DNA of 64,000 nt from Escherichia phage vB_EcoM-LTH01. The translations under genes were made by a program, and so were the position numbers. Shown here piece by piece: positions 3,273-59,521 of this stretch. The notes below the pieces were generated by a model. It was given only the letters and a program-made list of their open reading frames with translations. It had not been told where the DNA came from and did no database searches. The stretch lies in the sequence record PP430345; one strand, 5' to 3'. Numbering within the stretch: position 1 is the stretch's first letter; each line of letters opens with the position of its first letter.

Positions 3273-3572
3273 TTGAAAAGGTTAATCATTTTATGTATAC
3301 TTCTTCTTGTTGGTTGCGGAGAGGGTGAAGATGAGCAGACAAAGCGATACAAAAATCTACCTTCTCTGATGCCAACAGAGGTTAAGGAGTTACACGAATT
3401 TTGCAAGAAGCAACACAATTATTACAACAGTTATGCGGTTGTTGTTGATGGTGAAGCAAAATCTGTAATTTGCAAGTTCAAAGATAGTGAACGTGAAAAA
3501 GGTATCTCCTCAGGTTATACGTGGGATGCTCAAAGTTTAAGAGATAAAATGAAGGGGGTTAAAAATGAGTAA
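3273..3572 (+). CDS. putative lipoprotein (TTG start)
   Basis: N-terminus MKRLIILCILLLVGCGEGED has signal peptide plus lipobox LVGC; GGAGG RBS at 3262-3266. Confidence 0.5.
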   Translation: MKRLIILCILLLVGCGEGEDEQTKRYKNLPSLMPTEVKELHEFCKKQHNYYNSYAVVVDGEAKSVICKFKDSEREKGISSGYTWDAQSLRDKMKGVKNE

Positions 3573-3753
3573 TGATCTTAGTTCACATGCGGTAATGGGA
3601 CCTGGTGGTGCACTGATCGGGATCGCAATCACAAAAGGTATTGCAAATGAAATTATCATGGAGTTTCAAAAGAAAGGTCGAACGGGTTACTATGCAACCC
3701 CTGTAGAAAGTTGGATGTTAGATTACTTTAAAGACGATACCGAGGAGGCTTAA
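3565..3753 (+). CDS. small Gly-rich membrane protein
   Basis: GPGGALIGIAITKGIA hydrophobic helix; overlaps neighbours by a few nt. Confidence 0.4.
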   Translation: MSNDLSSHAVMGPGGALIGIAITKGIANEIIMEFQKKGRTGYYATPVESWMLDYFKDDTEEA

Positions 3754-4340
3754 TGGAATACATTAGTTGGTTGTTTATCTTATCTGCGTGGGTTATCTTT
3801 GCTATCTGGTTAGCCCCTGTGATCATCGCTTTCCGTCGTAATCACAAGAACAAGGTTGTAATTTTAGCTTTGTCATTCTTTACTTCAATGATCCCTTACC
3901 CGCTTGCATTGTTTGCTTGTTGGATAGTTCTGTTGGCTTGGTCATTGTATAAAGTTTCAGTGGTCAATGATGGCTCAAAGTCTGCATATTTAGATTCTAA
4001 GTATCTTGAGTATGCAAAAGGACCGCAAGGTTTACCTGGTCCAATGGGTCCCCGTGGAGAGTCTGCTTATGAAACATACCTGAGAATTCTTCGTAAAGAA
4101 GATCCTAGCGCTATCCCACTAAATGAGAAGGATTGGCTGGATAGTTTAAAAGGGTTGGATGGTGACAAAGGTGATCGAGGGCCATCTGCATACGATCTGT
4201 ATTGCTTATCTGTATGGTCCAAAGGTGATGGTAAAGTACCTCTGTCTTTAGATGAGTGGCTAGAATCTCTCCGTGGTAAAGATGCAGACGAATTACCTTT
4301 ATCTAAAAAAGGTGTCGTTAGTCCACCAAAACGTCCTTGA
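3753..4340 (+). CDS. membrane protein with short collagen-like Gly-X-Y motifs
   Basis: Two N-terminal TM helices, then GPQGLPGPMGPRGESAYETYL and DGDKGDRGPSAYDLY motifs resembling modules of the collagen-like structural protein. Confidence 0.5.
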   Translation: MEYISWLFILSAWVIFAIWLAPVIIAFRRNHKNKVVILALSFFTSMIPYPLALFACWIVLLAWSLYKVSVVNDGSKSAYLDSKYLEYAKGPQGLPGPMGPRGESAYETYLRILRKEDPSAIPLNEKDWLDSLKGLDGDKGDRGPSAYDLYCLSVWSKGDGKVPLSLDEWLESLRGKDADELPLSKKGVVSPPKRP

Positions 4341-7356: not shown

Positions 7357-10300
7357 TTAGCGACGAGTGATGAATACGTCAATCAATGGGCCTTTGCCAC
7401 GATAAACCATGTTAACTACCGATACAGTGTTTGCATCTGTGTTGATGGTTTCAGTACCGTGTACAACAAACTCCGATCCGAATGTTACCGCATGTCCACC
7501 TGTACCATCCTGTTCAAAGAAGAGGAACACTGACTCACCTTTTCCTGAACTCAACAGGCCAATCGGTGCTTTCACTTCAACATCATTTATAACGTTTACG
7601 TTATATATGCTCGTTGAGCCGTCTGGGATATAAGAAGAAGAGGTGGTGCTTACTTCTTTTGGTGTGGTGCTGAACTTGCTTGCGGAAATGGCGTTTTCAG
7701 AACTAAGGGATTGAACATTTAACGGTACAGTCGGGATATTAAACTGACCAGTTACAGTCAGGTCTGTTATGTTCGCCGTCGTTAACGTAGCTGTCGTGGT
7801 AGACAAAGATGCAGGCTCGATCGCCTTTCCAGACAAGTCGATATTGCCAGAGATGTTACCAACAACAGTCAGGTTTCCACCAACTCGAAGGTTCTTGTTG
7901 ATGTTTGCACCGGAAAGAGAAGTTATCCCGTATGTAGGTGCACCTTCATAATCTTCACCGAATGTACCAGATAATCCAGTTACCGATGTACGAGACTCAA
8001 TGGAAAGGGCACTTACTGTTCCCGTTGAGGTCATAGAAGCAACGTTAACGTCTTGAGAGCTAAGGTCAATGTTGCCAGTTACAGTTCCTGTTACGTTAAG
8101 GTCGCCCTGAATCTCACCTGGTCCACGAACTTCAAGAGCAGGATCACTAGACCCGACAGTACGAGTGATAACCGTGTTACCTGAAGTTACTTTACCAGCA
8201 CGGATATCATCGGTGATGACTTGATCAATGTTGCCTATCCCTGAAACCTCTAAGCTTCCTGCCATTACTTGTCCAGTTGAAATCAAAGAACCAACTTCAG
8301 CTTGACCTGTGGCAACAATTGCAGTAGTCTGAATCTCAACTTGAGCGGTTACGCTACGGGGAGAGATATCTTTACCGTTTATGCTTTCCGCTGTCCCTAA
8401 GGCGTTACCATTCGCGTCCAGAAGAGATCCAAATACCTGTACGTCATTGAAGCTTGCTTGACCTTGAACAGATGTGATATTACCAGCGGTGATAGTCAAA
8501 CCATCATTTAAGGTAACAGCACCTTCCAAGAGGCTAGTCTCTTCGACACGTAGCGTTTTAGTTCTCACAGACGTTGCAGACTGCACACTATTTGGAAGAA
8601 TGTCTTGACCAGTGACGTTTGCAAAGAATTGCTCACCATTGGCATTTGTCAGGTTTCCAGTTACCTGAAGATCTACCGTAGTAATCTTTTGATTGTTGGT
8701 TATGTTATTAGCAGTAACCTCGTCAAAAGTTGATCCACGAGTAACCGTCAGGGTATTAACCTGAATGTCCCGCCCAGTGAGGTCTACTTCAAAACCTGTT
8801 ACAGTTCCCGTGATTGTCAGGTTATTTACCTGAGTTTCTCCAGTGGCTGTCAGGTTTGCCGTTGTAACGCTCTCAGAAGCTTCTACAGACGTTGTTTCCA
8901 CAGAGGATGGGAGAATGTCTTGTCCGTCAACATTTCCCGTTACAGTGATTCCTGTGGTGGTTCCTGTGACTACAAGATTGTTAACCGTTGTGGTCGAAGT
9001 TGTTCCTGCGGTAATGTCGCCACTAACTGAGAGGCTCGCACCATCAATTGCAGCAGCCGTTATGTCCCCAGTATCTAAGCTTTGGATACTTAACTCACCG
9101 TCTAGAGTAATATCACCACGAACACGCATGTTGTTACCAACATCGATGTTTCCTGTGGTTGTCACCGAAGAAGGAGAGATTGCTTCACCATCAATAGAGA
9201 CTGTAACTCCCGTCAGGTTTCCAGTGATCTCAAGATCCTTGATCGTTGCCTTGTTAGTCACTGTCAGATCTTGGAATTCAACAGCAGAAGTTCCAAAGTC
9301 GATATCGGCCCTGAGTGTTCCATTAACCGTCAGGTTGTTTACCGTAACATCGCCGGAAGCAGTAGTAGGTCCAGTAATGTTTAAGCTCTCTGCCACAGTA
9401 ACAGATGTTGCACTCACATTACGAGGGGAAATGTCTTTCCCGTCAACACCGATTCCAGCACCCGTGAGAGTACCTTCGATTCTTACATTTTTCAATACTG
9501 TATTGCCAGCAACGGCAAGATCTGCACCGAGAGTTGTATTTCCCTTGACCTCCGCAGTTCTTTCAACCACAATGCTGTTAGGATTAATATCCAGACCTTC
9601 AACGTCAGCCTTCAATCCTTCAATGGTGTTCGTCACACGAAGAGTATTTATTTCCGCAATACCGTCAACGATCAGCTGTGGGCGGTCTTCTGCGTTATTG
9701 GCATTACCCTCTAAGTGAAGATAGTCACCTTGCATGAATCCATCAACATCAAGAGAATTCGTGGAAACAGAGGTATTTCCAACCTTGATCTCTCTCGCAG
9801 TTATATTATCGCTATCAACAACACCAGTGGTGACTTGGAAAGGCTTTATATTTGTTCTTTTGGTTAACCCTGCCTGGGGTGGAACGCCATTTTGTTCAAA
9901 TGCGATTTCTGCGTCTGTGCCTGTCATTCGTAATCTTTTTAAAGATAATTCGGCATCAAGAGCAGCGATCCTGTCGCCAGTGAAGATGGTTTCTCCACTT
10001 ACATAGAGATCTTTCAGACTCGCATCATCTGCAACGATAATGTTTTGGAATTCACCTTTGGACTCTTCAAGAACCTCACCACGTACTTTTTCTATTTCTC
10101 GGCTAACCCAAGCGGTGTTCGCGATAGTAAATGAGCTATCACCTTCAGCAGCAAGAGGTACAGTAGGGTTTCCACGGAAGACAGGGGAAAGGATAGGGGC
10201 GTAAGTTTCTTGAATGTTACCTTTATCGAAGAAAGGTCTGAACTTCCCGTCGTTGATCGGACTGTCTCGCATAACGACAGGGGTACTAGTAGTTGCACCT

Positions 10301-47900: not shown

Positions 47901-49271
47901 GTGATGAGCGTAACTAAGATTATCGAACAACTGGCAGCAACCGGATCAACAAAAGAAAAAGAAGCGATCTTACGTAGTCATGCGGATAACGATGGCCTGC
48001 GTGAAGTATTTCGGGTAGCATATAGCAAAGAGTTAAACTTCTTTGTTCGCAGTTTTAAGGTTGATCCTGCAACTTTCCACCAAGGAAGCCGTAATCTGCA
48101 AGAGAGTATTGATCTTATCGTCAACGATGTTGCAAGCCGTATGTACACTGGGCATGAAGCTCGTGATGTTCTCACGAATGCCGTTCAACTGTGTGAAGAA
48201 CCCGAAACCCTGATAAAGATCATCAACCGCGATCTTGAGTGTGGTATCCAGACAACTCTGACCAACAAGGTTTGGAAGGACCTGATTACAGAGCCTCCTT
48301 ACCAGAGCTATACTCTTTTCAAAGAGGATCTCCTTCGTAATTTCAACTATGAGGGTGCTTTCTCCGACGAGAAGATGGACGGACTTTATGCAGACATTAT
48401 GGTTTGGCCTGAGCAGGTCATTTATCGTTCACGATCAGGGAAAGAGCTTAATTTCCGGTGTATTACTTCACTTGAGCAAAACCTGAAAGAAAAAGCCAAT
48501 TCTGATGGTCCTTTTGTTATGCACGGGGAAGGTTTAGTTATTGACCTGTCATACCCGCACGGGGTTCAACCACGAGAGATCGGTAACGGATATCTTAACC
48601 AAGATCCTGAAAACATTGATCCTAATCTGGTACGTTTGGTTGTTTGGGATGTTGTTTCTATGGACGAGTATATCGCACGTAAATCCAAGAAAAAATATAA
48701 AGACCGTCGTAAGCAGGTTGAAAATATTGTCAACTATGTTGATGAGTCTTCTCATTTCCAGATGATCCGTGGTCGTCAGATAGGCAGTCTTAAAGAGGCT
48801 ATTGACCACTTTATCGAAATGCGTTTGCAGAAGAAAGAGGGTACGGTTCTTAAAGAAGCGAATATGCCTTGGGGAGATAACAAGACTAAGAAAGGGATCA
48901 AACTTAAAAATGAGTTCGATGTTGATCTTGAGGTTGTGGCGACAACGCCTCACAAGAAGAAGCCTGGGCTTATTGGATCTCTGGTCTGCCGGACTCGTGA
49001 TGGACTTCTTGAAGTTGGTGCTGGGTCTGGACTTACTGATGCGCTTCGTAAAAAGCCGAGTGAGTATTTCATTGGGCAGATTATTACGATCAAGGCTAAT
49101 GACATTACTGATGCGGAGAATAAAGATCTGAAATCGCTGTTTTTGCCACGTTTAAATTATAAGTTTGTTGAACTTCGCTTTGATAAGAGCGTAGCCAACA
49201 GCCTGGAAGAAGTGATCGAAGCATCGAACTCTCTTCTGGATCTTCTTCGTAAAATTGCAGAGGAGGTTTAA
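47901..49271 (+). CDS. ATP-dependent DNA ligase
   Basis: Adenylation motif I KxDG present as EKMDGLYADI; 456 aa; AAGGAGAAG RBS. Confidence 0.65.
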   Translation: MMSVTKIIEQLAATGSTKEKEAILRSHADNDGLREVFRVAYSKELNFFVRSFKVDPATFHQGSRNLQESIDLIVNDVASRMYTGHEARDVLTNAVQLCEEPETLIKIINRDLECGIQTTLTNKVWKDLITEPPYQSYTLFKEDLLRNFNYEGAFSDEKMDGLYADIMVWPEQVIYRSRSGKELNFRCITSLEQNLKEKANSDGPFVMHGEGLVIDLSYPHGVQPREIGNGYLNQDPENIDPNLVRLVVWDVVSMDEYIARKSKKKYKDRRKQVENIVNYVDESSHFQMIRGRQIGSLKEAIDHFIEMRLQKKEGTVLKEANMPWGDNKTKKGIKLKNEFDVDLEVVATTPHKKKPGLIGSLVCRTRDGLLEVGAGSGLTDALRKKPSEYFIGQIITIKANDITDAENKDLKSLFLPRLNYKFVELRFDKSVANSLEEVIEASNSLLDLLRKIAEEV

Positions 49272-52024: not shown

Positions 52025-52033
52025 AAATTTTTA

Positions 52034-52060
52034 AGCCGCCCTTCGGGGCGGTTTTTCTTT
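52034..52060 (+). terminator. rho-independent terminator (CCGCCC-TTCG-GGGCGG + T-tract)
   Basis: GC stem with TTCG tetraloop followed by TTTTTCTTT. Confidence 0.7.
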
Positions 52061-52069
52061 ATCTATCTC

Positions 52070-52097
52070 TTGACACCTGCCTCCAGTTCTGTATAAT
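52070..52097 (+). promoter_or_regulatory. strong sigma70-consensus promoter (TTGACA-16-TATAAT)
   Basis: Perfect -35 at 52070-52075 and perfect -10 at 52092-52097, directly after terminator. Confidence 0.6.
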
Positions 52098-52319: not shown

Positions 52320-52784
52320 TTGAAAACTTTTAAAGAACGTATGGAATTGTTAGATAAAGCTTTGTCTCGTGAAACTCCAGAGAGTTTGTTTGAAAAACTA
52401 CAGTCATACGGAAATGCTGATTACTCTTTCGAAGATATGATGGATGAGATTCCTGAGATCTGTTGGCAAACATGTTATTGGAATAACGATCAAAAAGTTC
52501 AACGTACTATTGTATGTGCAGCTAATCGGTTTAAATTGAAAGATGGTGGAACTCTGATTATCCCTGGATCTCGTCATTACTCTAAGGATATGGCAGAAGT
52601 GCTTGATGTGGTGGGGCCACAATTAGTATCTCAGCAAGTTTGTGGAGACGATCAAGGCTTTATCGACCAATACGGTAATTATTGGAATCGTGAAGAAGCA
52701 ATGATTATTGCAACTTATGCCGGACAGGTACGTATCGAACGTGGTGGAAGTGAGAAAGAACTTTACTCGGAGGACCTTTACTGA
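52320..52784 (+). CDS. hypothetical protein (TTG start)
   Basis: ORF track; GAGGGG RBS. Confidence 0.4.
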
Positions 52785-53056
52785 TGAACACTAAACAGCT
52801 TACTATTGAAGCTTTGCAGCTTAAGATAAAACAAATCGAGTATCTTAACCAGATGATGAAAGAGGGTTGGGGTACGTATACTAATCAGCCTGCCTGGGAG
52901 GCTTTAGGTCATCCATACCTGAACGATGCTTGTAATGGTAATATTCCTCGTGATGGGTTGAAACCTTTCTTACGGGATATGTACATTAAGGTTAACGAAG
53001 AGATCATTGATTCCCTTTACTATCAGATCAGGAAACTCGAAAATGAGAGTAATTGA
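52784..53056 (+). CDS. hypothetical protein
   Basis: ORF track; ATG overlaps upstream stop. Confidence 0.45.
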   Translation: MNTKQLTIEALQLKIKQIEYLNQMMKEGWGTYTNQPAWEALGHPYLNDACNGNIPRDGLKPFLRDMYIKVNEEIIDSLYYQIRKLENESN

Positions 53057-53243
53057 TTCTAAAAGTGATTATTTCAATTCTTTAAATGATAAGGACAAGA
53101 CTAAGATTCGTCACTTCATCGTAGAGATGGGATACACCAACTCTGAAGATTTGAAAGAGCATATTCTCGAATGTTACGTAGCTAAGAAATTTTCTTTGAC
53201 AAGTAAGTGTTTAAATGAGATTATACAGCACTACACGGCTTAA
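53043..53243 (+). CDS. hypothetical protein
   Basis: ORF-track frame 53007-53243 trimmed to ATG 53043. Confidence 0.35.
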   Translation: MRVIDSKSDYFNSLNDKDKTKIRHFIVEMGYTNSEDLKEHILECYVAKKFSLTSKCLNEIIQHYTA

Positions 53244-53954: not shown

Positions 53955-54506
53955 ATGCGAGTCACTGATAAACATGTGTTCTTTTATTCTTATCGCGATG
54001 TTTTTAGTAATCATTACCAGGAGATCTCTCCATTCTCAAACTTCGACCAGAAGATGAAGGGGGTTTATTTCCACACTGGTGAGCATTACATGATGTATGA
54101 AAAGGCTATGCTTTTCGGTGACAAAGCTTCAGCGGAAAGGATCATTAAGGCCGTAACGCCGCAAGGTGCTAAAACGCTCGGTCGTAAGGTAAAGAATTTT
54201 GATCAGGCAGTTTGGGATGAAAATAAATTTAACATTGTGACCCGTTTAGTGTATAGTCGTATGTGTGATAATGGTAATCTCCGTGAACTTGCGGTAGGTT
54301 ACCGTAAAAAGGGTTTGAAGTTTGTAGAAGCCTCGCCGAGAGATCGTATATGGGGGATCGGTATGGACGAGAATCATCCTATGGTAGATGATGAAAGTTT
54401 CTGGTATGGAGAGAATCTTTTGGGGAAAGCCTGGGACGAAGCAACGGATATGATTATCGATGTTTCGGAAGCTATGAATATGATTGGTAAATGTGAGGCA
54501 TACTAA
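53955..54506 (+). CDS. NADAR-family (YbiA-like) hydrolase; candidate DNA ADP-ribosylation reversal enzyme
   Basis: N-terminal FFYSYRDVFSNHY, HYMMYEKAMLFGD, GRKVKNFDQAVWDE and ASPRDRIWGIGMDE match the conserved blocks of NADAR/DUF1768 as I recall them. Confidence 0.65.
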   Translation: MRVTDKHVFFYSYRDVFSNHYQEISPFSNFDQKMKGVYFHTGEHYMMYEKAMLFGDKASAERIIKAVTPQGAKTLGRKVKNFDQAVWDENKFNIVTRLVYSRMCDNGNLRELAVGYRKKGLKFVEASPRDRIWGIGMDENHPMVDDESFWYGENLLGKAWDEATDMIIDVSEAMNMIGKCEAY

Positions 54507-55010
54507 ATGAAATTAACTATCGAATTAATCCCAAGCACAGCTTGGGACAACAACCTTCGGTCTTACCTTACCCAATCTGGTTGGGACAAAGTTCGTCGAA
54601 AGTGCTATCAAGAAGCAAACTACCACTGTGAGGTTTGTGGAGGTCAAGGTGGAAATGGACGTAAGCATCCATGTGAAGCTCACGAGGTATGGGACTTTGT
54701 TGATGGGGAAGTTGTGTTAAGGGGTGTGATCGCTTTATGTCCTCCTTGCCACGAAGTAAAACATATCGGTCGTGCTCAAGCGACTGGTAACATGACTCGT
54801 GCAATACGACACTTTATGAAAGTTAACGGTGTTGACAAGAAGGCTGCTGAAGAATACATTAGGCAAGCTGCGGCATTGTGGCGAGAAAGAAGTAAGCAAG
54901 AGTGGTCTTTGAATATCGATTATCTGTATGAATACATGGGTAAAGATTTCAAATTCAAGCGACCAGTAAAAGAAGTTAAAGAAGACGAAGATTACGGCGA
55001 AGCATTTTAA
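54507..55010 (+). CDS. HNH-family endonuclease-like protein (possible free-standing homing endonuclease)
   Basis: CEVCG...H...AHEVWDF...CPPCHEVKH has the Cys-pair/His spacing of HNH nucleases; ATGA overlap with NADAR gene. Confidence 0.45.
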   Translation: MKLTIELIPSTAWDNNLRSYLTQSGWDKVRRKCYQEANYHCEVCGGQGGNGRKHPCEAHEVWDFVDGEVVLRGVIALCPPCHEVKHIGRAQATGNMTRAIRHFMKVNGVDKKAAEEYIRQAAALWRERSKQEWSLNIDYLYEYMGKDFKFKRPVKEVKEDEDYGEAF

Positions 55011-55023
55011 TAAGGAGAGGTCT

Positions 55024-56133
55024 ATGGGTTATCCGGTAATTGAAGATTGGTCAGGTATTATCGAAGACAACGTGGTTGTTGCACTTGATCTCGATCAAAC
55101 TTGCTATGTTGCTGCGGCTGGTGCAGAAAAAAGAACGATCATCGCTCGACACAAGGAGACTGGAAGGGAAAAAGAATTTCGCAACAAAACAGAGTTTTGG
55201 GGTCGCCAAAAGAATGTTGTTGGTGGATGGTTAAAAGACCAAAACATTAATATGGAAGCAAAAGCGGTTGCTCGCGGAAAAGAATTTACTCCGTGGACCC
55301 GTGATGATTTCGAGATCATTGAAAAGCAAACTCCAGAACCAGTGGAGAACTGTCTTCACTTATTGAAGATTAAGATCAATGCTATTCTTGAACACGTAGG
55401 ATCAGCAAACGGGCTTGGTGTTTTAGGTGGGAGTGGTAACTTCCGTCTTGCACTCCCGACCCCTGAGATCTATAAGGGTAACCGTGAAGATACTTTACGT
55501 CCTCTGTTGCTTGGGGAGACTCGTCGATATGTTCAGCAGAAGTATGGTGCGATCATTGTGGATGGTATTGAGGCAGATGATTATTTATCGATCCTTGGTT
55601 ACAAAGGTTATTTAAATTATCGAAAGACTGGAAAGTTCAGTCATATTGTGGCATCCTTTGATAAGGATCAGGTTCAGGTTCCTTCTCTGTTGTTTAACAC
55701 GATGCGTGATTCAACAGAGCGTACTTGGAAACATCCTGAACTCTGGTTGATTGATGATTCTATGGGTGAGATCTGGATGGAGTCTGGAAAGGTAAAAGGC
55801 TGGGGTAAGAAATTCTTCGGTTACCAAATGCTATTTGGTGATGCAGCGGATAACGTTAAACCATATCAAACCTTCGAGGGTCTTCGCTTTGGTGAAACAT
55901 CGGCTTTCCAGGTCATCTCCCCTTGTGCAGACGAGAAGAGTATGTGGTTAGCTATTATTGATCAGTATAAGAAGTGGTTTCCTGAGGGTGTTGAATATAC
56001 AGACCACTTAGGGAATCATCGTAAGTTTTCAGCGGGTCAGTGGGCTTCTGTCATTTTCCAGTGTGTTTATATGAAGCGCACAGAAAATGATAAGACAACA
56101 TTATCCTCAACTTTAAAACGGGTAGGTATTTAA
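55024..56133 (+). CDS. putative nuclease (5'-3' exonuclease/FEN-like motif)
   Basis: GAIIVDGIEADDYLSILGY resembles the GxEADD motif of 5' nucleases; N-terminal VVVALDLDQT acidic cluster; weak. Confidence 0.3.
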   Translation: MGYPVIEDWSGIIEDNVVVALDLDQTCYVAAAGAEKRTIIARHKETGREKEFRNKTEFWGRQKNVVGGWLKDQNINMEAKAVARGKEFTPWTRDDFEIIEKQTPEPVENCLHLLKIKINAILEHVGSANGLGVLGGSGNFRLALPTPEIYKGNREDTLRPLLLGETRRYVQQKYGAIIVDGIEADDYLSILGYKGYLNYRKTGKFSHIVASFDKDQVQVPSLLFNTMRDSTERTWKHPELWLIDDSMGEIWMESGKVKGWGKKFFGYQMLFGDAADNVKPYQTFEGLRFGETSAFQVISPCADEKSMWLAIIDQYKKWFPEGVEYTDHLGNHRKFSAGQWASVIFQCVYMKRTENDKTTLSSTLKRVGI

Positions 56134-56444
56134 TGTCAGGCTTTTCTGAGAGTTTTGATGATGTTATGATCGCTGACGAAATTCGTGCAGCACTCGTTCC
56201 TGGCGCAAAGCGCCAGGTCTACAAGATTGAAGAACCTTGGACTATGCTGGAGGAGCCTTGGAGAATTCAATGGTTTGACAAGCGTGTTGATTCTATCTGT
56301 CAGGTCTATGTTGTTGGTGATCCGTTCTACGATGAGAAATATGTAACTTTTATGGTTTACATGGACGGAGAAGTAAAGAACTATGTGTTCTTAATCGACC
56401 AATATCATTATCTTGATAATACCGAAGAAGGGGAATCAGCGTGA
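56133..56444 (+). CDS. hypothetical protein
   Basis: ORF track; translationally coupled. Confidence 0.45.
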   Translation: MSGFSESFDDVMIADEIRAALVPGAKRQVYKIEEPWTMLEEPWRIQWFDKRVDSICQVYVVGDPFYDEKYVTFMVYMDGEVKNYVFLIDQYHYLDNTEEGESA

Positions 56445-57019
56445 AAATTTTATCCATCGATCAGAGTATGGCTTCTTGTGCATGTGTAGTTTTTGACGGT
56501 AATGAACCGATCTTTAAAGAAGTATTGAAAACAACAGGATCTGCAAATGCCAAAGACTGGCAGATTCGTTTTGATAATCCTGTTGAGCAGATGGCATACA
56601 TTTCTCGACACATTGCGGATATTTGTGAGTCTTTCCAGGTCGAGAAGATCGTGCTGGAGTCTTTGAGCTTTGGATCTGCTGGTAATGCCACAAGGGATCT
56701 TGCAGGATTATTTTTCTGTATTCAGTTGACACTACTTCGAGATGGATATAGTATGGACAACATACACACCATTGCACCAACATCTGTTAAATCTTGGGCG
56801 CGAGGTAAATTACCTGGTGAGGAACAAGAGGTGATGAATGCAAAAGGTACGAAGATGGAAAAAATTAAAATGGATAAAGATCAAATGATGAAGGTTTGCG
56901 AGTTGATGGAACCTGGGTTTTTAGCTGGATATTCAAAGACAGGTAAGAACGGCGGGGCTACAGATCTTGCAGATGCCTACTTAATTGGGAGATGCTACCT
57001 TGAACGAAACGGTTATTGA
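56441..57019 (+). CDS. RuvC-like Holliday junction resolvase
   Basis: N-terminal KILSIDQS and C-terminal ATDLADAYLIGRCY resemble RuvC catalytic blocks. Confidence 0.5.
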   Translation: MKILSIDQSMASCACVVFDGNEPIFKEVLKTTGSANAKDWQIRFDNPVEQMAYISRHIADICESFQVEKIVLESLSFGSAGNATRDLAGLFFCIQLTLLRDGYSMDNIHTIAPTSVKSWARGKLPGEEQEVMNAKGTKMEKIKMDKDQMMKVCELMEPGFLAGYSKTGKNGGATDLADAYLIGRCYLERNGY

Positions 57020-57653
57020 ACGCTACGAATCTGAAGAGTTTTACCAGAGTAAGAAATTAGTGATCTGTTGGAATACCCTCGAAAGGGGGGATTTCATTGC
57101 TAAACTAAAGCACACTGCAAATAAGTTGGGGTTTGGTTCTTATCAGAAGGATCGTAGTGGTTACGATATAAACCTGTTTAATGAGCGATCTAAGCTGAAC
57201 ATGCACATTCAGACGATCAGTTCTGCACAGTGGTCTTTTTGGCAAAAAGTCAGAGGTATGTGTTTTGACGAAATCATCATCAGTGGGTATTCTTTTAAGT
57301 CTGTTTCTGATAAAGCTTCACTGAAAGAATTACTTTATTTGACGAAGCAAAAAGGTAATCCGATTTTTGATAATGCTTTAAGGGTTTTTATAAACTCAAG
57401 TCGATCTGAATTCTTTAAGGATTTTGATTCGAACGTTCCATCAGAGTTTAAAAATAATGTTGACAACAGTCTGTTTAGTAATATAAACTTTCCAATGTCA
57501 CTTTATCGCTTCGGAATGGAAGAGTATTTTGAAAACCCTGTTGCACCTACACACGGTGAGTTCTTAATGGCTTTGGCCTTGGAGGGAGTACATGCGAGTA
57601 CCGAGAGTGAGGAAGCGGCGGTCAAAGAGGCCACTATTCACAGCGAAGGATAA
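56985..57653 (+). CDS. hypothetical protein
   Basis: ORF track; 35-nt overlap with upstream gene, start uncertain. Confidence 0.4.
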   Translation: MGDATLNETVIERYESEEFYQSKKLVICWNTLERGDFIAKLKHTANKLGFGSYQKDRSGYDINLFNERSKLNMHIQTISSAQWSFWQKVRGMCFDEIIISGYSFKSVSDKASLKELLYLTKQKGNPIFDNALRVFINSSRSEFFKDFDSNVPSEFKNNVDNSLFSNINFPMSLYRFGMEEYFENPVAPTHGEFLMALALEGVHASTESEEAAVKEATIHSEG

Positions 57654-57696
57654 GGCAACTACACCTATCCGTGTTAAATTGAATAAGGATCTTTGG

Positions 57697-58170
57697 GTGA
57701 GTGGGTCGAAGGAAATAGCAAAATATCGTGATGAAATATTGCTTGACCAACAGGGAGTTTGTGCTATACTAGGTGAAGTTATGGAGAAGCCTTGTTTAGA
57801 CCATGATCACTTTGATGGAAAGGTTAGGGGTGTTATTGGAAGCACCCTGAACCTTTTCGAAGGTGGTGTACAAAAACTTTGGTCTAAACACATGGAAGAT
57901 AAAACAGACTTGACAATGAGTGAAGTTCTACGTAGAATGGCTGACTATCTCGAAAGGGATTACTCTTCAAGAAAGTTTCATGGTGAGATTGTTGCTGACC
58001 TGAAAAAATATTTGAAGAGATTAAAGAAAGAAACAATTGCAATGAACGCTTTATTGAGGTACAATGTAGTTATCGATGATAGTTTGGATAAAGGTGAAAT
58101 GATAACTCTTTATGTGAAAGCGTTTATCGATAAACTTGAGGAGGGTTATCTGTATGAGTCAAGAAGTTGA
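57697..58170 (+). CDS. endonuclease VII-like resolvase (GTG start, 157 aa)
   Basis: CAILGEVMEKPCLDHDHFDGKVRGVIGSTLN matches the EndoVII zinc/HN block; ORF-track start 57592 overlaps previous gene by 62 nt; GTG 57697 follows AAGGA with 7-nt spacer. Confidence 0.6.
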   Translation: MSGSKEIAKYRDEILLDQQGVCAILGEVMEKPCLDHDHFDGKVRGVIGSTLNLFEGGVQKLWSKHMEDKTDLTMSEVLRRMADYLERDYSSRKFHGEIVADLKKYLKRLKKETIAMNALLRYNVVIDDSLDKGEMITLYVKAFIDKLEEGYLYESRS

Positions 58171-58381
58171 CAATAACACCTACGGTTTACCAACCCTGCG
58201 GTTTTATTATCGCAATTGGAAAGGTGATTGTGGTTATCGTACTGTAACTGGTACGCCAGTGATGTGGTATGGTGAATCGCCGTATCATCGTGGCGAACAG
58301 TGGTTTATGAAAGCGTATGATGTAGATAAACAAGATATCCGTGACTTTGCTGTTGCCGATGTAATCGAATTTTTTAAATAA
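58154..58381 (+). CDS. hypothetical protein
   Basis: ORF-track frame from 58136; ATG 58154 after GAGG preferred. Confidence 0.4.
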   Translation: MSQEVDNNTYGLPTLRFYYRNWKGDCGYRTVTGTPVMWYGESPYHRGEQWFMKAYDVDKQDIRDFAVADVIEFFK

Positions 58382-58391
58382 GGAGTTTTTA

Positions 58392-59486
58392 GTGACTAAT
58401 AAAGTAACTTTTACTGTTGAACAAGTTCTGCAACTGATGAAACACGGTTTGTCTCAGCGCGAAGTAGCTCGCCAATTGGGTAAAGAGTCTCAGGAATCTA
58501 CGGTTCGTAATATGATCCGTCGTGAAATTCAAAAGAATGATGTTTCAAGTGTTAAGGAACTCCTTGAAATCACCCCAGCTTATGAAGATTACGAAAACTA
58601 TGCAGAATATATGCAGCAGAAAGAGTCAGGTGGGGAGTCTGTCGCTAAGATTGAAAAAGATTTCATTGAAAAGATCAAAGAGCAGAACCCAGGTGCTAAA
58701 GTTTTCCTTGGTGACATTGAAACATCTCCTTCTATAGCATATTCGTTTGGACGATTTAAACAGTTCATTGCACCGAAGCAGGTAATTATGGAACCGTACA
58801 TGCTGACATTCGCTGGTAAGTGGCTGCACAACCCATCGATCTTCAGCCGGAAGCTGACTGACTATCCAGAAGAGTTTGCACGAGATCACCAGTCAGATCG
58901 CAAGTTGATCGAAGACCTGTGGAAAGTTCTGGACGAATGTGATATCTTTATCGCACATAATGCTCGCTTTGACCGTGGTTGGGCAAATCAGCGTTTCGCA
59001 TATTACGGTATGCAACCGCCAAGCCCCTACATCACGATCGATACATTGGCTGCACTGAAAGAAGCTTTCTCTCTTCCTTCAAATGCACTTGAAGCAGCAT
59101 GTAACTATTTTGAACTTGATAGTCGTAAGCTGTCGCATGAAGGTTTCAGTCTGTGGCGACGTTGTGTTGAAGGTGACCCAACCGCATTTGAAGAGATGGA
59201 AGAATATAACATTGGTGATATTCCAACGCTGGAAGAACTGTATCTGACTGTACGACCTTTCATGCGGAAACATCCGAACATTGCATTGTTCCACAAAGAT
59301 CAATCAACTATGCGTTGTGTTCGTTGTGGTAGTGACGACTTAGTTATTGAGGAAGGTAAGTCAGCAGTAACGTTCTTGTCTAAGTTCAAGGTGTATCGTT
59401 GCCAGGAATGTGGTTCTTGTGCACGAGATCGTCAGAATGTTCGCGAGAAGGCAGCGATGAAGAAAACGCTGGCAAACATTCTGTAA
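58392..59486 (+). CDS. DEDD-type 3'-5' exonuclease with N-terminal HTH-like region
   Basis: Exo I-like FLGDIETSP and Exo III-like HNARFDRGW; C-terminal CVRCG...CQECG zinc-ribbon-like. Confidence 0.55.
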   Translation: MTNKVTFTVEQVLQLMKHGLSQREVARQLGKESQESTVRNMIRREIQKNDVSSVKELLEITPAYEDYENYAEYMQQKESGGESVAKIEKDFIEKIKEQNPGAKVFLGDIETSPSIAYSFGRFKQFIAPKQVIMEPYMLTFAGKWLHNPSIFSRKLTDYPEEFARDHQSDRKLIEDLWKVLDECDIFIAHNARFDRGWANQRFAYYGMQPPSPYITIDTLAALKEAFSLPSNALEAACNYFELDSRKLSHEGFSLWRRCVEGDPTAFEEMEEYNIGDIPTLEELYLTVRPFMRKHPNIALFHKDQSTMRCVRCGSDDLVIEEGKSAVTFLSKFKVYRCQECGSCARDRQNVREKAAMKKTLANIL

Positions 59487-59495
59487 TTTTATTTA

Positions 59496-59521
59496 ACCGC
59501 CCTTCGGGGCGGTTTTTTTTA
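59496..59521 (+). terminator. rho-independent terminator (near-copy of the 52034 terminator)
   Basis: ACCGCCC-TTCG-GGGCGGT followed by TTTTTTTTATT. Confidence 0.7.

What the first reader, a model, noticed from the sequence alone, without database searches (positions are those of the whole stretch)
56441..58170. Two different junction-resolving nucleases (RuvC-like and EndoVII-like) nearly adjacent, plus HNH, DEDD exonuclease and ligase
Seen in sequence: RuvC-like motifs at 56441-57019 and an EndoVII-like CLDHDHFDGKVRG block at 57697-58170, separated by one unknown ORF. Phages usually carry one resolvase. Inference: redundancy or specialisation (for example packaging debranching versus repair), or one has been repurposed.
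Basis: partly seen in the sequence, partly recalled or inferred. Interest (0 to 1): 0.4.

Follow-up and report, generated by a model that had tools for sequence, protein, structure and literature searches.

The report
Conserved RuvC–EndoVII nuclease pair in phage
This E. coli phage, like about 225 sequenced relatives, keeps two unrelated branched-DNA-cutting enzymes side by side (one RuvC-type, one T4 endonuclease VII-type that has lost its zinc site); both look functional, so the pairing is real and conserved, though each belongs to a known family.

Summary
The window is a Vequintavirinae (Septuagintavirus-like) E. coli myophage, about 95% identical to phages UPEC06 and A7_1. ORF 56441-57019 is a RuvC-family protein. 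It has the acidic tetrad D7/E73/D175/D178, an AlphaFold model with pLDDT 96.5, and bacterial RuvC structures as its best fold matches. ORF 57592-58170 is a full-length homologue of T4 endonuclease VII. It keeps D70/H71/H73/R79/N87/E90, but three of the four zinc cysteines of T4 are replaced (C-L-G-L). Both genes are under strong purifying selection (dN/dS about 0.015-0.02). They sit in one predicted promoter-to-terminator unit together with HNH, FEN-like and DEDD nucleases.

The RuvC-like gene lies directly upstream of the EndoVII-like gene in 26 of 26 related viral loci. At E<=1e-25, per-genus hit counts in GenBank phages are nearly the same for the two genes (234 and 227 records). Their divergences are correlated (r=0.79). 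The 217-aa ORF between them is a clade-specific, fast-evolving insertion.

In jumbo phages, RuvC and EndoVII resolvases are reported to be nearly complementary, so a fixed pair is unusual. Non-redundant division of labour is the best reading, but it is inferred. The finding is ordinary to moderately interesting.

The parts
52033..52097 (+). Terminator-like hairpin (52033-52054) followed by a perfect sigma-70 consensus promoter (52070-52097). This is the predicted start of the transcription unit that holds both nucleases.
   Evidence: 9-pair stem with a T run; TTGACA-16-TATAAT, 12 of 12 matches. These are consensus scans only, not proof of function.
53955..54506 (+). NADAR-domain (YbiA-like) protein, first recognisable gene of the conserved row.
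   Evidence: PF08719, E=4e-37. It holds the same position in phage FENT2.
54507..55010 (+). HNH endonuclease (167 aa).
   Evidence: PHROG 5200, E=3e-70. The position is conserved in FENT2 and L100. The allele is unusually divergent between close relatives.
55024..56133 (+). FEN-like 5'-3' exonuclease (369 aa), a third probable structure-specific nuclease in the row.
   Evidence: PHROG 107 'exonuclease', E=6.5e-66. One search gives only a weak PF02739 match (E=0.077). dN/dS is 0.02-0.05.
56133..56444 (+). Small conserved ORF of unknown function (103 aa). Its stop codon overlaps the RuvC-like start.
   Evidence: PHROG 13101, E=2e-36. dN/dS is about 0.02. The GTGA overlap is seen.
56441..57019 (+). 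RuvC-family Holliday-junction resolvase homologue (192 aa). It has the tetrad D7, E73, D175, D178 and lysines K117 and K146. It carries a clade-specific insertion of about 25 aa (residues about 121-145, predicted beta-hairpin) between helices C and D.
   Evidence: PHROG 159. Homologues carry PF02075. Alignment with E. coli RuvC. AF2 pLDDT 96.5. Foldseek top hits are RuvC of D. radiodurans, T. thermophilus and E. coli at E=1e-8 to 1e-7, and bIL67 RuvC at 3e-5. dN/dS 0.015.
57000..57653 (+). Unknown 217-aa ORF inserted between the two nuclease genes. It overlaps both neighbours and occurs only in the CR3/phiTE/Septuagintavirus clade.
   Evidence: PHROG 12410 'unknown function', E=2e-20. No Pfam, PADLOC, NCBIfam or PDB match. 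Only 3 homologue clusters found. Identity to CR3/phiTE-type loci is 26-29% where the neighbouring genes keep 62-79%. The ORF is absent from rV5/PVP-SE1-type loci, where the two nuclease ORFs abut or overlap.
57592..58170 (+). T4 endonuclease VII homologue (192 aa). Catalytic D70, H71, H73, R79, N87 and E90 are kept. The zinc ligands of T4 (C23, C26, C58, C61) read C61, L64, G83, L86 here. It has a basic N-terminal extension of about 30 aa that T4 lacks.
58136..58381 (+). Small conserved ORF with weak similarity to a WYL domain, always downstream of the EndoVII-like gene.
   Evidence: PHROG 3715, E=2.6e-24. PF13280 at E=9e-4, below the gathering score. It holds the same position in FENT2 and L100. 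UPEC06 annotates the start at about 58154.
58392..59486 (+). DEDD (DnaQ/RNase T-type) 3'-5' exonuclease, annotated in relatives as 'DNA polymerase exonuclease subunit'.
   Evidence: PF00929, E=1e-6, above the cut-off. PHROG 403, E=1e-113. Weak DnaQ-type NCBIfam matches.
59495..59514 (+). Strong terminator-like hairpin that closes the predicted unit. Its stem is nearly the same as that of the hairpin at 52033.
   Evidence: 8 pairs, 6 of them G-C, followed by TTTTTTTAT.
47901..49271 (+). It lies in an upstream unit.
   Evidence: PF01068, E=2.6e-11, plus PF14743. UPEC06 annotates it as 'DNA ligase'.

Best explanation
The two genes form a conserved, co-transcribed debranching module. Both products are active, metal-dependent, structure-selective DNA endonucleases with non-redundant jobs on the phage's own replicating DNA.

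The RuvC-type enzyme most likely acts as a homodimer. It would resolve true four-way (Holliday) junctions and reversed or recombining forks that arise during recombination-linked replication.

The endonuclease VII-type enzyme is a zinc-free version of T4 gp49. It would act as the broad-specificity debrancher for Y-junctions, loops, mismatches and residual junctions, clearing concatemers so that they can be packaged.

Both would be made early, from one promoter, together with FEN-like, HNH and DEDD nucleases.

Shown here: gene integrity, family membership, catalytic residues, purifying selection, conserved linkage, co-inheritance, and consensus promoter and terminator signals bounding one unit.

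Inferred: enzymatic activity, dimer state, substrate preferences and the division of labour.
For: - Family and active sites. The RuvC tetrad D7/E73/D175/D178 plus K117/K146 is invariant across 25 aligned sequences, including E. coli RuvC. These match EcRuvC D7, E66, D138, D141 as listed in PMC3864405. The AF2 model has pLDDT 96.5, and its best fold hits are solved RuvC structures.
- EndoVII residues. D70/H71/H73/R79/N87/E90 are invariant in the clade and align to T4 D40, H41, H43, R54, N62, E65. The roles of D40, N62, H41 and H43 are given in PMC6083498. Homology covers the C-terminal helical domain too.
- Both genes are maintained. Against A7_1 and A73 there are 29-30 synonymous and 2-3 non-synonymous differences in each gene, giving dN/dS of 0.015-0.023.
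- Linkage. RuvC-like lies directly upstream of EndoVII-like, on the same strand, in 26 of 26 loci of the clade and in 21 of 29 loci found from the RuvC side. At E<=1e-25 there are 227 and 234 GenBank phage records with almost the same per-genus counts. The genes are adjacent in rV5, FFH2 and PVP-SE1.
- Co-inheritance. Pairwise distances of the two proteins correlate (r=0.79, Mantel 0 of 2000), and mean divergence is alike (0.49 and 0.52).
- Co-transcription. Within the row the genes overlap or are tightly packed. A perfect consensus promoter lies at 52070 and strong terminators lie only at 52033 and 59495.
- Unusual pairing. In jumbo phages the two resolvase types are nearly complementary (PMC7824862), so stable retention of both suggests distinct roles.
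Against: - No biochemical or genetic data exist for either protein in any Vequintavirinae phage that I could find.
- The EndoVII-like protein lacks three zinc ligands. In T4, the C23S and C61S mutants are inactive and cannot bind DNA (PMC6083498), so its activity and substrate range may differ from gp49.
- One uncultured related lineage (L100, 136-kb contig) has the RuvC-like gene but no EndoVII-like gene within 6 kb. The second enzyme may therefore be dispensable.
- Co-transcription from one promoter argues against a simple early/late split of roles.
- The promoter and terminator calls are consensus scans. The promoter count in the region is not above the shuffled expectation (50 found, 46.6 expected).
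Confidence: 0.55

Rival explanations
1. Plain redundancy. Both enzymes resolve the same junctions, and the second is a back-up that raises robustness, for example against host inhibitors or differing ionic conditions. Either one alone would suffice.
For: Both families are classical Holliday-junction resolvases, and phage resolvases are typically promiscuous (PMC3864405 abstract). Both genes sit in the same predicted transcription unit. The L100 lineage has the RuvC-like gene without a neighbouring EndoVII-like gene.
Against: Redundant genes rarely stay intact. Here both show dN/dS of about 0.02, equal divergence, and linkage down to about 35-45% identity in 26 of 26 loci. Elsewhere the two types tend to exclude each other.
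Confidence: 0.2
2. One of the two has been repurposed. The most likely candidate is the zinc-free EndoVII-like protein with its basic N-terminal extension. It would no longer resolve junctions but act as a different nuclease, for example a nicking, host-DNA, mismatch or sequence-directed enzyme. The homing endonuclease F-CphI shows that the EndoVII motif can be used in this way.
For: Three of the four zinc ligands are lost, and in T4 these are needed for DNA binding. The protein has an N-terminal R/K-rich extension that T4 lacks. F-CphI uses the EndoVII motif for homing (PMC6083498). Some records annotate the RuvC-like gene as 'RNaseH'.
Against: Homology to gp49 spans the whole protein, including the C-terminal dimerisation and DNA-binding helices. 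The gene has a fixed syntenic position and is not sporadic like a homing gene. The zinc-free form is the majority among the nearest relatives: 120 of the 150 best-scoring representatives have 0-1 Cys at the four positions and nearly all keep D-H-H-R-N. Loss of zinc is therefore a stable structural variant, not decay. No PADLOC defence-family match was found.
Confidence: 0.13
3. Obligate cooperation. The two nucleases would act as one machine on the same junction, as a physical complex or by nick and counter-nick, like eukaryotic SLX1-SLX4 with MUS81-EME1.
For: The genes are tightly adjacent with overlapping reading frames in rV5/PVP-SE1-type phages. Their evolutionary distances are correlated.
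Against: Both families work as homodimers with two active sites and need no partner (established for T4 endonuclease VII and RuvC; for RuvC). Unrelated ORFs have been inserted between the genes at least twice. L018 shows exchange of one partner without the other. No fused protein occurs among the 150 best EndoVII-like representatives, the longest being 240 aa. Correlated distances are expected from simple linkage.
Confidence: 0.06

Closest known systems
Bacteriophage T4 endonuclease VII (gp49; PDB 1e7d, 1en7, 2qnc; Pfam PF02945)
   Same: Full-length homology: T4 residues 32-150 align at E=2.5e-6. The beta-beta-alpha-metal motif is shared, with D40/H41/H43/R54/N62/E65 equal to D70/H71/H73/R79/N87/E90 here. 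The C-terminal helical domain is shared. T4 EndoVII is the only significant structural match. Relatives are annotated 'EndoVII packaging and recombination endonuclease'.
   Different: Three of the four zinc cysteines are replaced (C-L-G-L; rV5/PVP-SE1 types have D-L-S-V). There is an extra basic N-terminal extension of about 30 residues. The protein is only about 25-28% identical to gp49. It is encoded next to a RuvC-type gene, which I recall T4 does not have (not checked here).
Bacterial RuvC (E. coli 1hjr, T. thermophilus 4ld0/4ep4, D. radiodurans 7w8d/7xhj; Pfam PF02075)
   Same: RNase H-like fold and the four acidic catalytic residues, plus two conserved lysines. The profile built from its family matches 7w8d at E=1e-3.
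   Different: Only about 14-17% identical. The protein itself scores below Pfam reporting. It has an insertion of about 25 aa between helices C and D and an invariant G-N-A-T-R-D-L-A-G-L motif that bacterial RuvC lacks. No RuvA/RuvB-like gene was recognised among the 16 neighbouring gene products scanned. This agrees with phage RuvC not being coupled to RuvB.
Lactococcus phage bIL67 RuvC (PDB 4ktw; PMC3864405)
   Same: A phage-encoded RuvC with the same tetrad and the D-x-S motif after strand 1 (D7-Q8-S9 here, D8/S10 in bIL67). Foldseek E=3e-5. In bIL67 RuvC the helix C to helix D region governs branch selectivity, and that is where this protein carries its insertion.
   Different: bIL67 RuvC is shorter (160-residue chain in 4ktw) and lacks the hairpin insertion. 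The bIL67 papers read here mention no second resolvase in that phage (not checked). Sequence similarity is too low for a direct phmmer hit.
Resolvase repertoire of jumbo phages (Iyer et al. 2021, PMC7824862)
   Same: The same two resolvase families are used by large myoviruses. The EndoVII-like proteins of 121Q-type jumbo phages are also zinc-free.
   Different: There the two families are 'nearly complementary'. Here they are fixed together as neighbours.
Eukaryotic multi-resolvase systems (SLX1-SLX4, MUS81-EME1, GEN1)
   Same: Several unrelated structure-selective nucleases are kept in one genome, with overlapping but non-identical substrates. This is an analogy only, drawn from general knowledge and the abstracts listed.
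   Different: There is no homology and no scaffold protein, and no evidence of cooperation here.

Membership tests
RuvC (PF02075; RNase H-like Holliday-junction resolvase) | Four catalytic carboxylates (EcRuvC D7, E66, D138, D141) | tested here: met
   D7, E73, D175 and D178 are invariant in alignment A2, which includes E. coli RuvC. The residue list comes from PMC3864405.
RuvC (PF02075; RNase H-like Holliday-junction resolvase) | RNase H-like fold closest to solved RuvC structures | tested here: met
   The AF2 model has pLDDT 96.5. The 12 best Foldseek hits are all bacterial RuvC chains, followed by bIL67 RuvC, Ydc2 and fowlpox resolvase.
RuvC (PF02075; RNase H-like Holliday-junction resolvase) | Match to the curated family HMM | tested here: inconclusive
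   The protein itself has no Pfam or NCBIfam hit. PHROG 159 'RuvC-like' matches at E=2e-32. Direct homologues at E=1e-10 to 1e-16 carry PF02075. The profile built from the family reaches PDB RuvC at E=1e-3.
RuvC (PF02075; RNase H-like Holliday-junction resolvase) | Homodimer that makes paired nicks across a four-way junction | not testable with these tools
   This needs biochemistry or multimer modelling. Only single-chain prediction was available.
T4 endonuclease VII (PF02945) | Match to the curated family HMM above the gathering score | tested here: met
   29.5 bits against a cut-off of 23.6. PHROG 423 matches at E=7e-32 over the full profile.
T4 endonuclease VII (PF02945) | Catalytic D-H-x-H, conserved Arg and distal Asn (T4 D40, H41, H43, R54, N62) | tested here: met
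   D70, H71, H73, R79 and N87 (and E90, equal to T4 E65) are invariant in A1 and A3. The roles are given in PMC6083498.
T4 endonuclease VII (PF02945) | Structural zinc site CX2-4C ... CX2C (T4 C23, C26, C58, C61) | tested here: not met
   The window has C, L, G, L at these positions and only two cysteines in the whole protein (C61, C68). It is therefore filed as a zinc-free variant of the family, not as a T4-type member. 120 of the 150 best-scoring representatives in the profile search share this state.
T4 endonuclease VII (PF02945) | C-terminal helical domain of gp49 (dimerisation and DNA binding), not only the nuclease motif | tested here: met
   [not shown]
EndoVII-motif homing endonucleases (F-CphI type) | EndoVII motif joined to a different DNA-binding part; sporadic, mobile distribution next to a target gene | tested here: not met
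   The protein is a full-length gp49 homologue. It holds a fixed syntenic position in 26 of 26 loci and in FENT2. No flanking repeats were found.
RuvABC resolvasome | RuvC acting with RuvA/RuvB branch-migration partners encoded alongside | tested here: not met
   None of 16 neighbouring gene products scanned against Pfam (10 of them also against PHROGs) is RuvA- or RuvB-like. The rest of the genome outside the window was not searched.

The most novel reading that the evidence does not exclude
The pair is not two independent resolvases but a functionally coupled two-enzyme debranching system. The zinc-free EndoVII-like nuclease and the insertion-bearing RuvC-like nuclease would have complementary substrate or strand preferences, for example nick and counter-nick, or junction against fork, and each would depend on the other. 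This would make Vequintavirinae a simple bacterial-virus model for multi-nuclease junction processing. A lesser novel point is that the zinc-free EndoVII subfamily is an undescribed structural solution for a fold whose prototype needs zinc.
Probability: 0.1. Interest if true: 0.6.

Novelty: new variant of a known kind. Interest (0 to 1): 0.35.

Why it matters
If both enzymes are active and non-redundant, these easily grown E. coli phages (the rV5, PVP-SE1, CR3 and A7_1 types, many of them therapy candidates) offer a natural system for asking why a virus needs two junction-processing nucleases. They would also show how branched replication intermediates are divided between recombination and packaging.

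The zinc-free EndoVII subfamily covers most of the nearest relatives, including those of jumbo phages. It shows that the published 'CX2-4C...DHDH...CX2C' signature does not describe a large part of the family. This matters for annotation and for understanding what the zinc does.

The practical gain for annotation is clear. In many GenBank records the RuvC-like gene is labelled 'hypothetical' or 'RNaseH', or is started too late and so loses its first catalytic Asp.

Tried and rejected
- Direct phmmer of the RuvC-like protein against PDB sequences found nothing at E<=10. Pfam and NCBIfam also gave no hit for it. Membership had to be shown through PHROG, homologue chaining, a profile search and the fold.
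- PADLOC defence models gave nothing for either nuclease or for the middle ORF.
- For the middle ORF, the Pfam, NCBIfam, PDB and homologue searches gave no functional lead.
- A repeat search around the three genes found only short chance repeats, so there is no sign of a mobile-element boundary.
- I tested whether loss of the zinc site is tied to having a RuvC partner, and rejected it. Zinc-free EndoVII-like proteins also occur in jumbo and small phages with no RuvC-like gene within 6 kb.
- I looked for RuvC-EndoVII fusion proteins as evidence of cooperation. None occurs among the 150 best representatives, the longest being 240 aa.
- Literature searches for any paper discussing the pair in rV5-like phages found none. 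A Septuagintavirus genome paper only lists a RuvC-like resolvase.
- The isolated promoter-like hit inside the EndoVII gene (57910-57938) was set aside as chance, because the promoter count in the region equals the shuffled expectation.
- A monomer AF2 model cannot reproduce the domain-swapped EndoVII dimer. The low TM-scores to 1e7l (0.36-0.42) were therefore not taken as evidence against homology.
Full report
**Identity of the window.**
The stretch 54500-59500 is 95.7% identical to Escherichia phage UPEC06 and 94-95% identical to phages A7_1, A5-4, A73 and W70. All of these are Vequintavirinae, and a homologue is named Septuagintavirus. More distant DNA matches are CR3-, phiTE- and PBES02-type phages. 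Genes between about 45 and 64 kb run on the + strand, and the structural genes (terminase to tail fibres) run on the - strand.

**The observation.**
Both ORFs are present as described.
- The RuvC-like ORF (56441-57019) starts at a GTG. This GTG overlaps the stop of the preceding ORF (GTGA) and follows GGGGA. A7_1 and A73 annotate the same 579-nt gene. UPEC06 starts it 27 nt later, which removes the first catalytic Asp.
- The EndoVII-like ORF (57592-58170) starts at an ATG behind GGAGGGAG.
- Between them lies a 217-aa ORF (57000-57653) that overlaps both neighbours.
- The HNH gene, the DEDD exonuclease and the ligase are confirmed by HMM. A FEN-like 5'-3' exonuclease at 55024-56133 completes a row of nucleases.

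**RuvC-like protein.**
- Pfam gives no hit for the protein itself. PHROG 159 'RuvC-like Holliday junction resolvase' matches at E=2e-32.
- The homologue search runs without a break from 98% identity down to proteins that carry PF02075, at E=1e-10 to 1e-16 and about 33% identity over 95% of the length.
- In an alignment with these proteins and with E. coli RuvC, D7, E73, D175 and D178 are invariant and fall on EcRuvC D7, E66, D138 and D141. K117 and K146 are also invariant. The catalytic residue list is confirmed in PMC3864405.
- The AlphaFold model is very confident (pLDDT 96.5). Its 12 best Foldseek hits in the PDB are bacterial RuvC chains (E=1e-8 to 1e-5), followed by phage bIL67 RuvC, yeast Ydc2 and fowlpox resolvase.
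- Relative to bacterial and short phage RuvC proteins, the clade carries an insertion of about 25 residues, predicted as a beta-hairpin, between helices C and D. In bIL67 RuvC this is the region that shapes branch selectivity.

**EndoVII-like protein.**
- It passes the Pfam gathering score for PF02945 and matches PHROG 423 over the whole profile.
- It matches T4 endonuclease VII chains directly, aligned from T4 residue 32 to 150.
- D70, H71, H73, R79, N87 and E90 are invariant in the clade. They align to T4 D40, H41, H43, R54, N62 and E65.
- PMC6083498 states that D40 and N62 bind the metal, that H41 and H43 are catalytic, and that R54 is universally conserved.

**The zinc site is missing.**
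- T4 C23, C26, C58 and C61 are C, L, G and L in the window. They are D, L, S and V in the rV5 and PVP-SE1 types.
- The window protein has only two cysteines in total. PMC6083498 describes CX2-4C...DHDH...CX2C as the family signature, and reports that T4 C23S and C61S are inactive and cannot bind DNA.
- The zinc-free state is not tied to the RuvC partner. Homologues from jumbo phages and from small phages without a nearby RuvC-like gene share it.
- Among the 150 best 50%-identity representatives from an exhaustive profile search, 120 have 0-1 Cys at the four positions and only 16 have all four. D-H-H-R-N is kept in nearly all of them.
- I therefore treat this protein as a member of a large, undescribed zinc-free branch of the EndoVII family.

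**Both genes are maintained.**
Against A7_1 and A73, each gene shows 29-30 synonymous and 2-3 non-synonymous differences, giving dN/dS of 0.015-0.023. This is as low as or lower than the values for the neighbouring FEN-like and DEDD genes.

**The pair is a conserved module.**

*Viral-contig loci.*
- I recovered 80 viral-contig loci with the EndoVII profile. In all of L002-L026, and in the UPEC06 locus L001, a RuvC-like ORF lies immediately upstream on the same strand, usually overlapping. These 26 loci form the Vequintavirinae-like clade.
- None of the 55 more distant EndoVII loci has a RuvC-like ORF within 6 kb.
- Searching from the RuvC side, 21 of 29 loci have the EndoVII-like gene next door. 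The exceptions are one truncated contig, small contigs with short RuvC proteins, and one 136-kb uncultured lineage, L100.

*GenBank phages.*
- At E<=1e-25 the two proteins hit 227 and 234 records, with almost the same per-genus counts: Escherichia 110/110, Klebsiella 32/30, Cronobacter 15/15, Pectobacterium 10/10.
- In rV5, FFH2 and PVP-SE1 the coordinates are adjacent.
- In the Pharokka-annotated phage FENT2 the two genes are already labelled 'RuvC-like Holliday junction resolvase' and 'endonuclease VII'. The gene row there is NADAR, HNH, exonuclease, small ORF, RuvC-like, EndoVII, small ORF, DEDD exonuclease, dNMP kinase and so on, the same as in the window.

*Co-inheritance.*
- Pairwise distances of the two proteins across 25 loci correlate (r=0.79; 0 of 2000 permutations reach this value), and mean divergence is alike (0.49 and 0.52). 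This indicates long co-inheritance.
- One locus, L018, shows exchange of one partner only.

**The middle ORF.**
It occurs only in the CR3/phiTE/Septuagintavirus clade. It is 26-29% identical there, where its neighbours keep 62-79%, yet it is still under purifying selection between close relatives (dN/dS about 0.1). An Aeromonas-type locus has two unrelated small ORFs at the same junction. The junction has therefore accepted insertions at least twice. No function could be assigned.

**Expression context.**
A terminator-like hairpin and a perfect consensus sigma-70 promoter lie at 52033-52097. The next strong terminator-like hairpin is at 59495-59514, just after the DEDD exonuclease. Together with the overlapping start and stop codons, this suggests that the two nucleases are co-transcribed early from a host-type promoter. 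These are consensus scans and not proof.

**Interpretation.**
- For jumbo phages the literature reports that RuvC-like and EndoVII-like resolvases are nearly complementary (PMC7824862). A fixed pair therefore runs against the usual pattern.
- I found no paper that discusses the pair.
- The best-supported reading is a two-enzyme debranching module with non-redundant roles. The RuvC-type enzyme would handle true junctions and forks. The gp49-type enzyme would act as the broad debrancher before packaging. This rests on what T4 gp49 and RuvC are known to do, plus the selection and linkage data. The division of labour itself is inference.
- The rivals are plain redundancy, repurposing of the zinc-free EndoVII-like protein, and obligate cooperation. 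They are listed with their evidence, and none is excluded.

**Verdict.**
Both proteins belong to known families in known phages, and some public records already annotate both. The novelty is modest: a conserved pairing that goes against the usual one-resolvase pattern, and a zinc-free branch of the EndoVII family.

Noticed in passing
window 52033-52054 and 59495-59514: The two strong terminator-like hairpins that bound the nuclease gene row have almost the same stem-loop (GCCGCCC-TTCG-GGGCGG against CCGCCC-TTCG-GGGCGG). This suggests a reused terminator cassette.
   Followed up: no
window 54507-55010: The HNH gene is a local divergence hotspot. It is 94% and 91% identical in protein to UPEC06 and A7_1 but only 67% identical to A73, while the flanking FEN-like, RuvC-like and EndoVII-like proteins are 98-99% identical to all three. 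A7_1 also has an extra 60-aa ORF between the HNH and FEN-like genes. This looks like allele replacement at this spot.
   Followed up: partly
L001 (UPEC06) 7969-8520; L111 (A7_1) 3837-4334; L112 (A73) 3296-3793: The public annotations disagree on gene starts. UPEC06 starts the RuvC-like gene 27 nt late and so loses catalytic D7. A7_1 and A73 start the EndoVII-like gene 81 nt late and so lose the conserved basic N-terminal extension.
   Followed up: yes
GenBank records such as MG065672, MG065666 and MG065690 ('Campylobacter phage A141, A12a, A135'): About 20 records named as Campylobacter jejuni phages carry the rV5-type RuvC-like and EndoVII-like genes at the same identity as E. coli rV5 phages. 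Their host assignment looks doubtful.
   Followed up: no
L100 5974-7537 (IMGVR_UViG_3300045988_163358, 136 kb): An uncultured relative has the RuvC-like gene followed by a 94-aa ORF and the dNMP kinase, with no EndoVII-like gene within 6 kb. The best cultured match to its RuvC-like protein is only 47% identical. It may be a natural loss of the second nuclease.
   Followed up: partly
L018 (IMGVR_UViG_3300032261_000021): This locus is mosaic. Its RuvC-like protein is 65% identical to the window's, but its EndoVII-like protein is only 42% identical. Recombination has therefore separated the histories of the two genes at least once.
   Followed up: no
[not shown]
   Followed up: no
window 58136-58381: A small ORF with sub-threshold WYL-domain similarity (PF13280, E=9e-4; PHROG 3715) always follows the EndoVII-like gene, also in FENT2 and L100. 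Its function is unknown.
   Followed up: no
window 52320-53243: UPEC06 labels three small ORFs here as 'anti-restriction nuclease'. The two scanned (52320-52784 and 52784-53056) had no Pfam match, and the third (about 53.0-53.2 kb) was not scanned. The label appears unsupported.
   Followed up: partly
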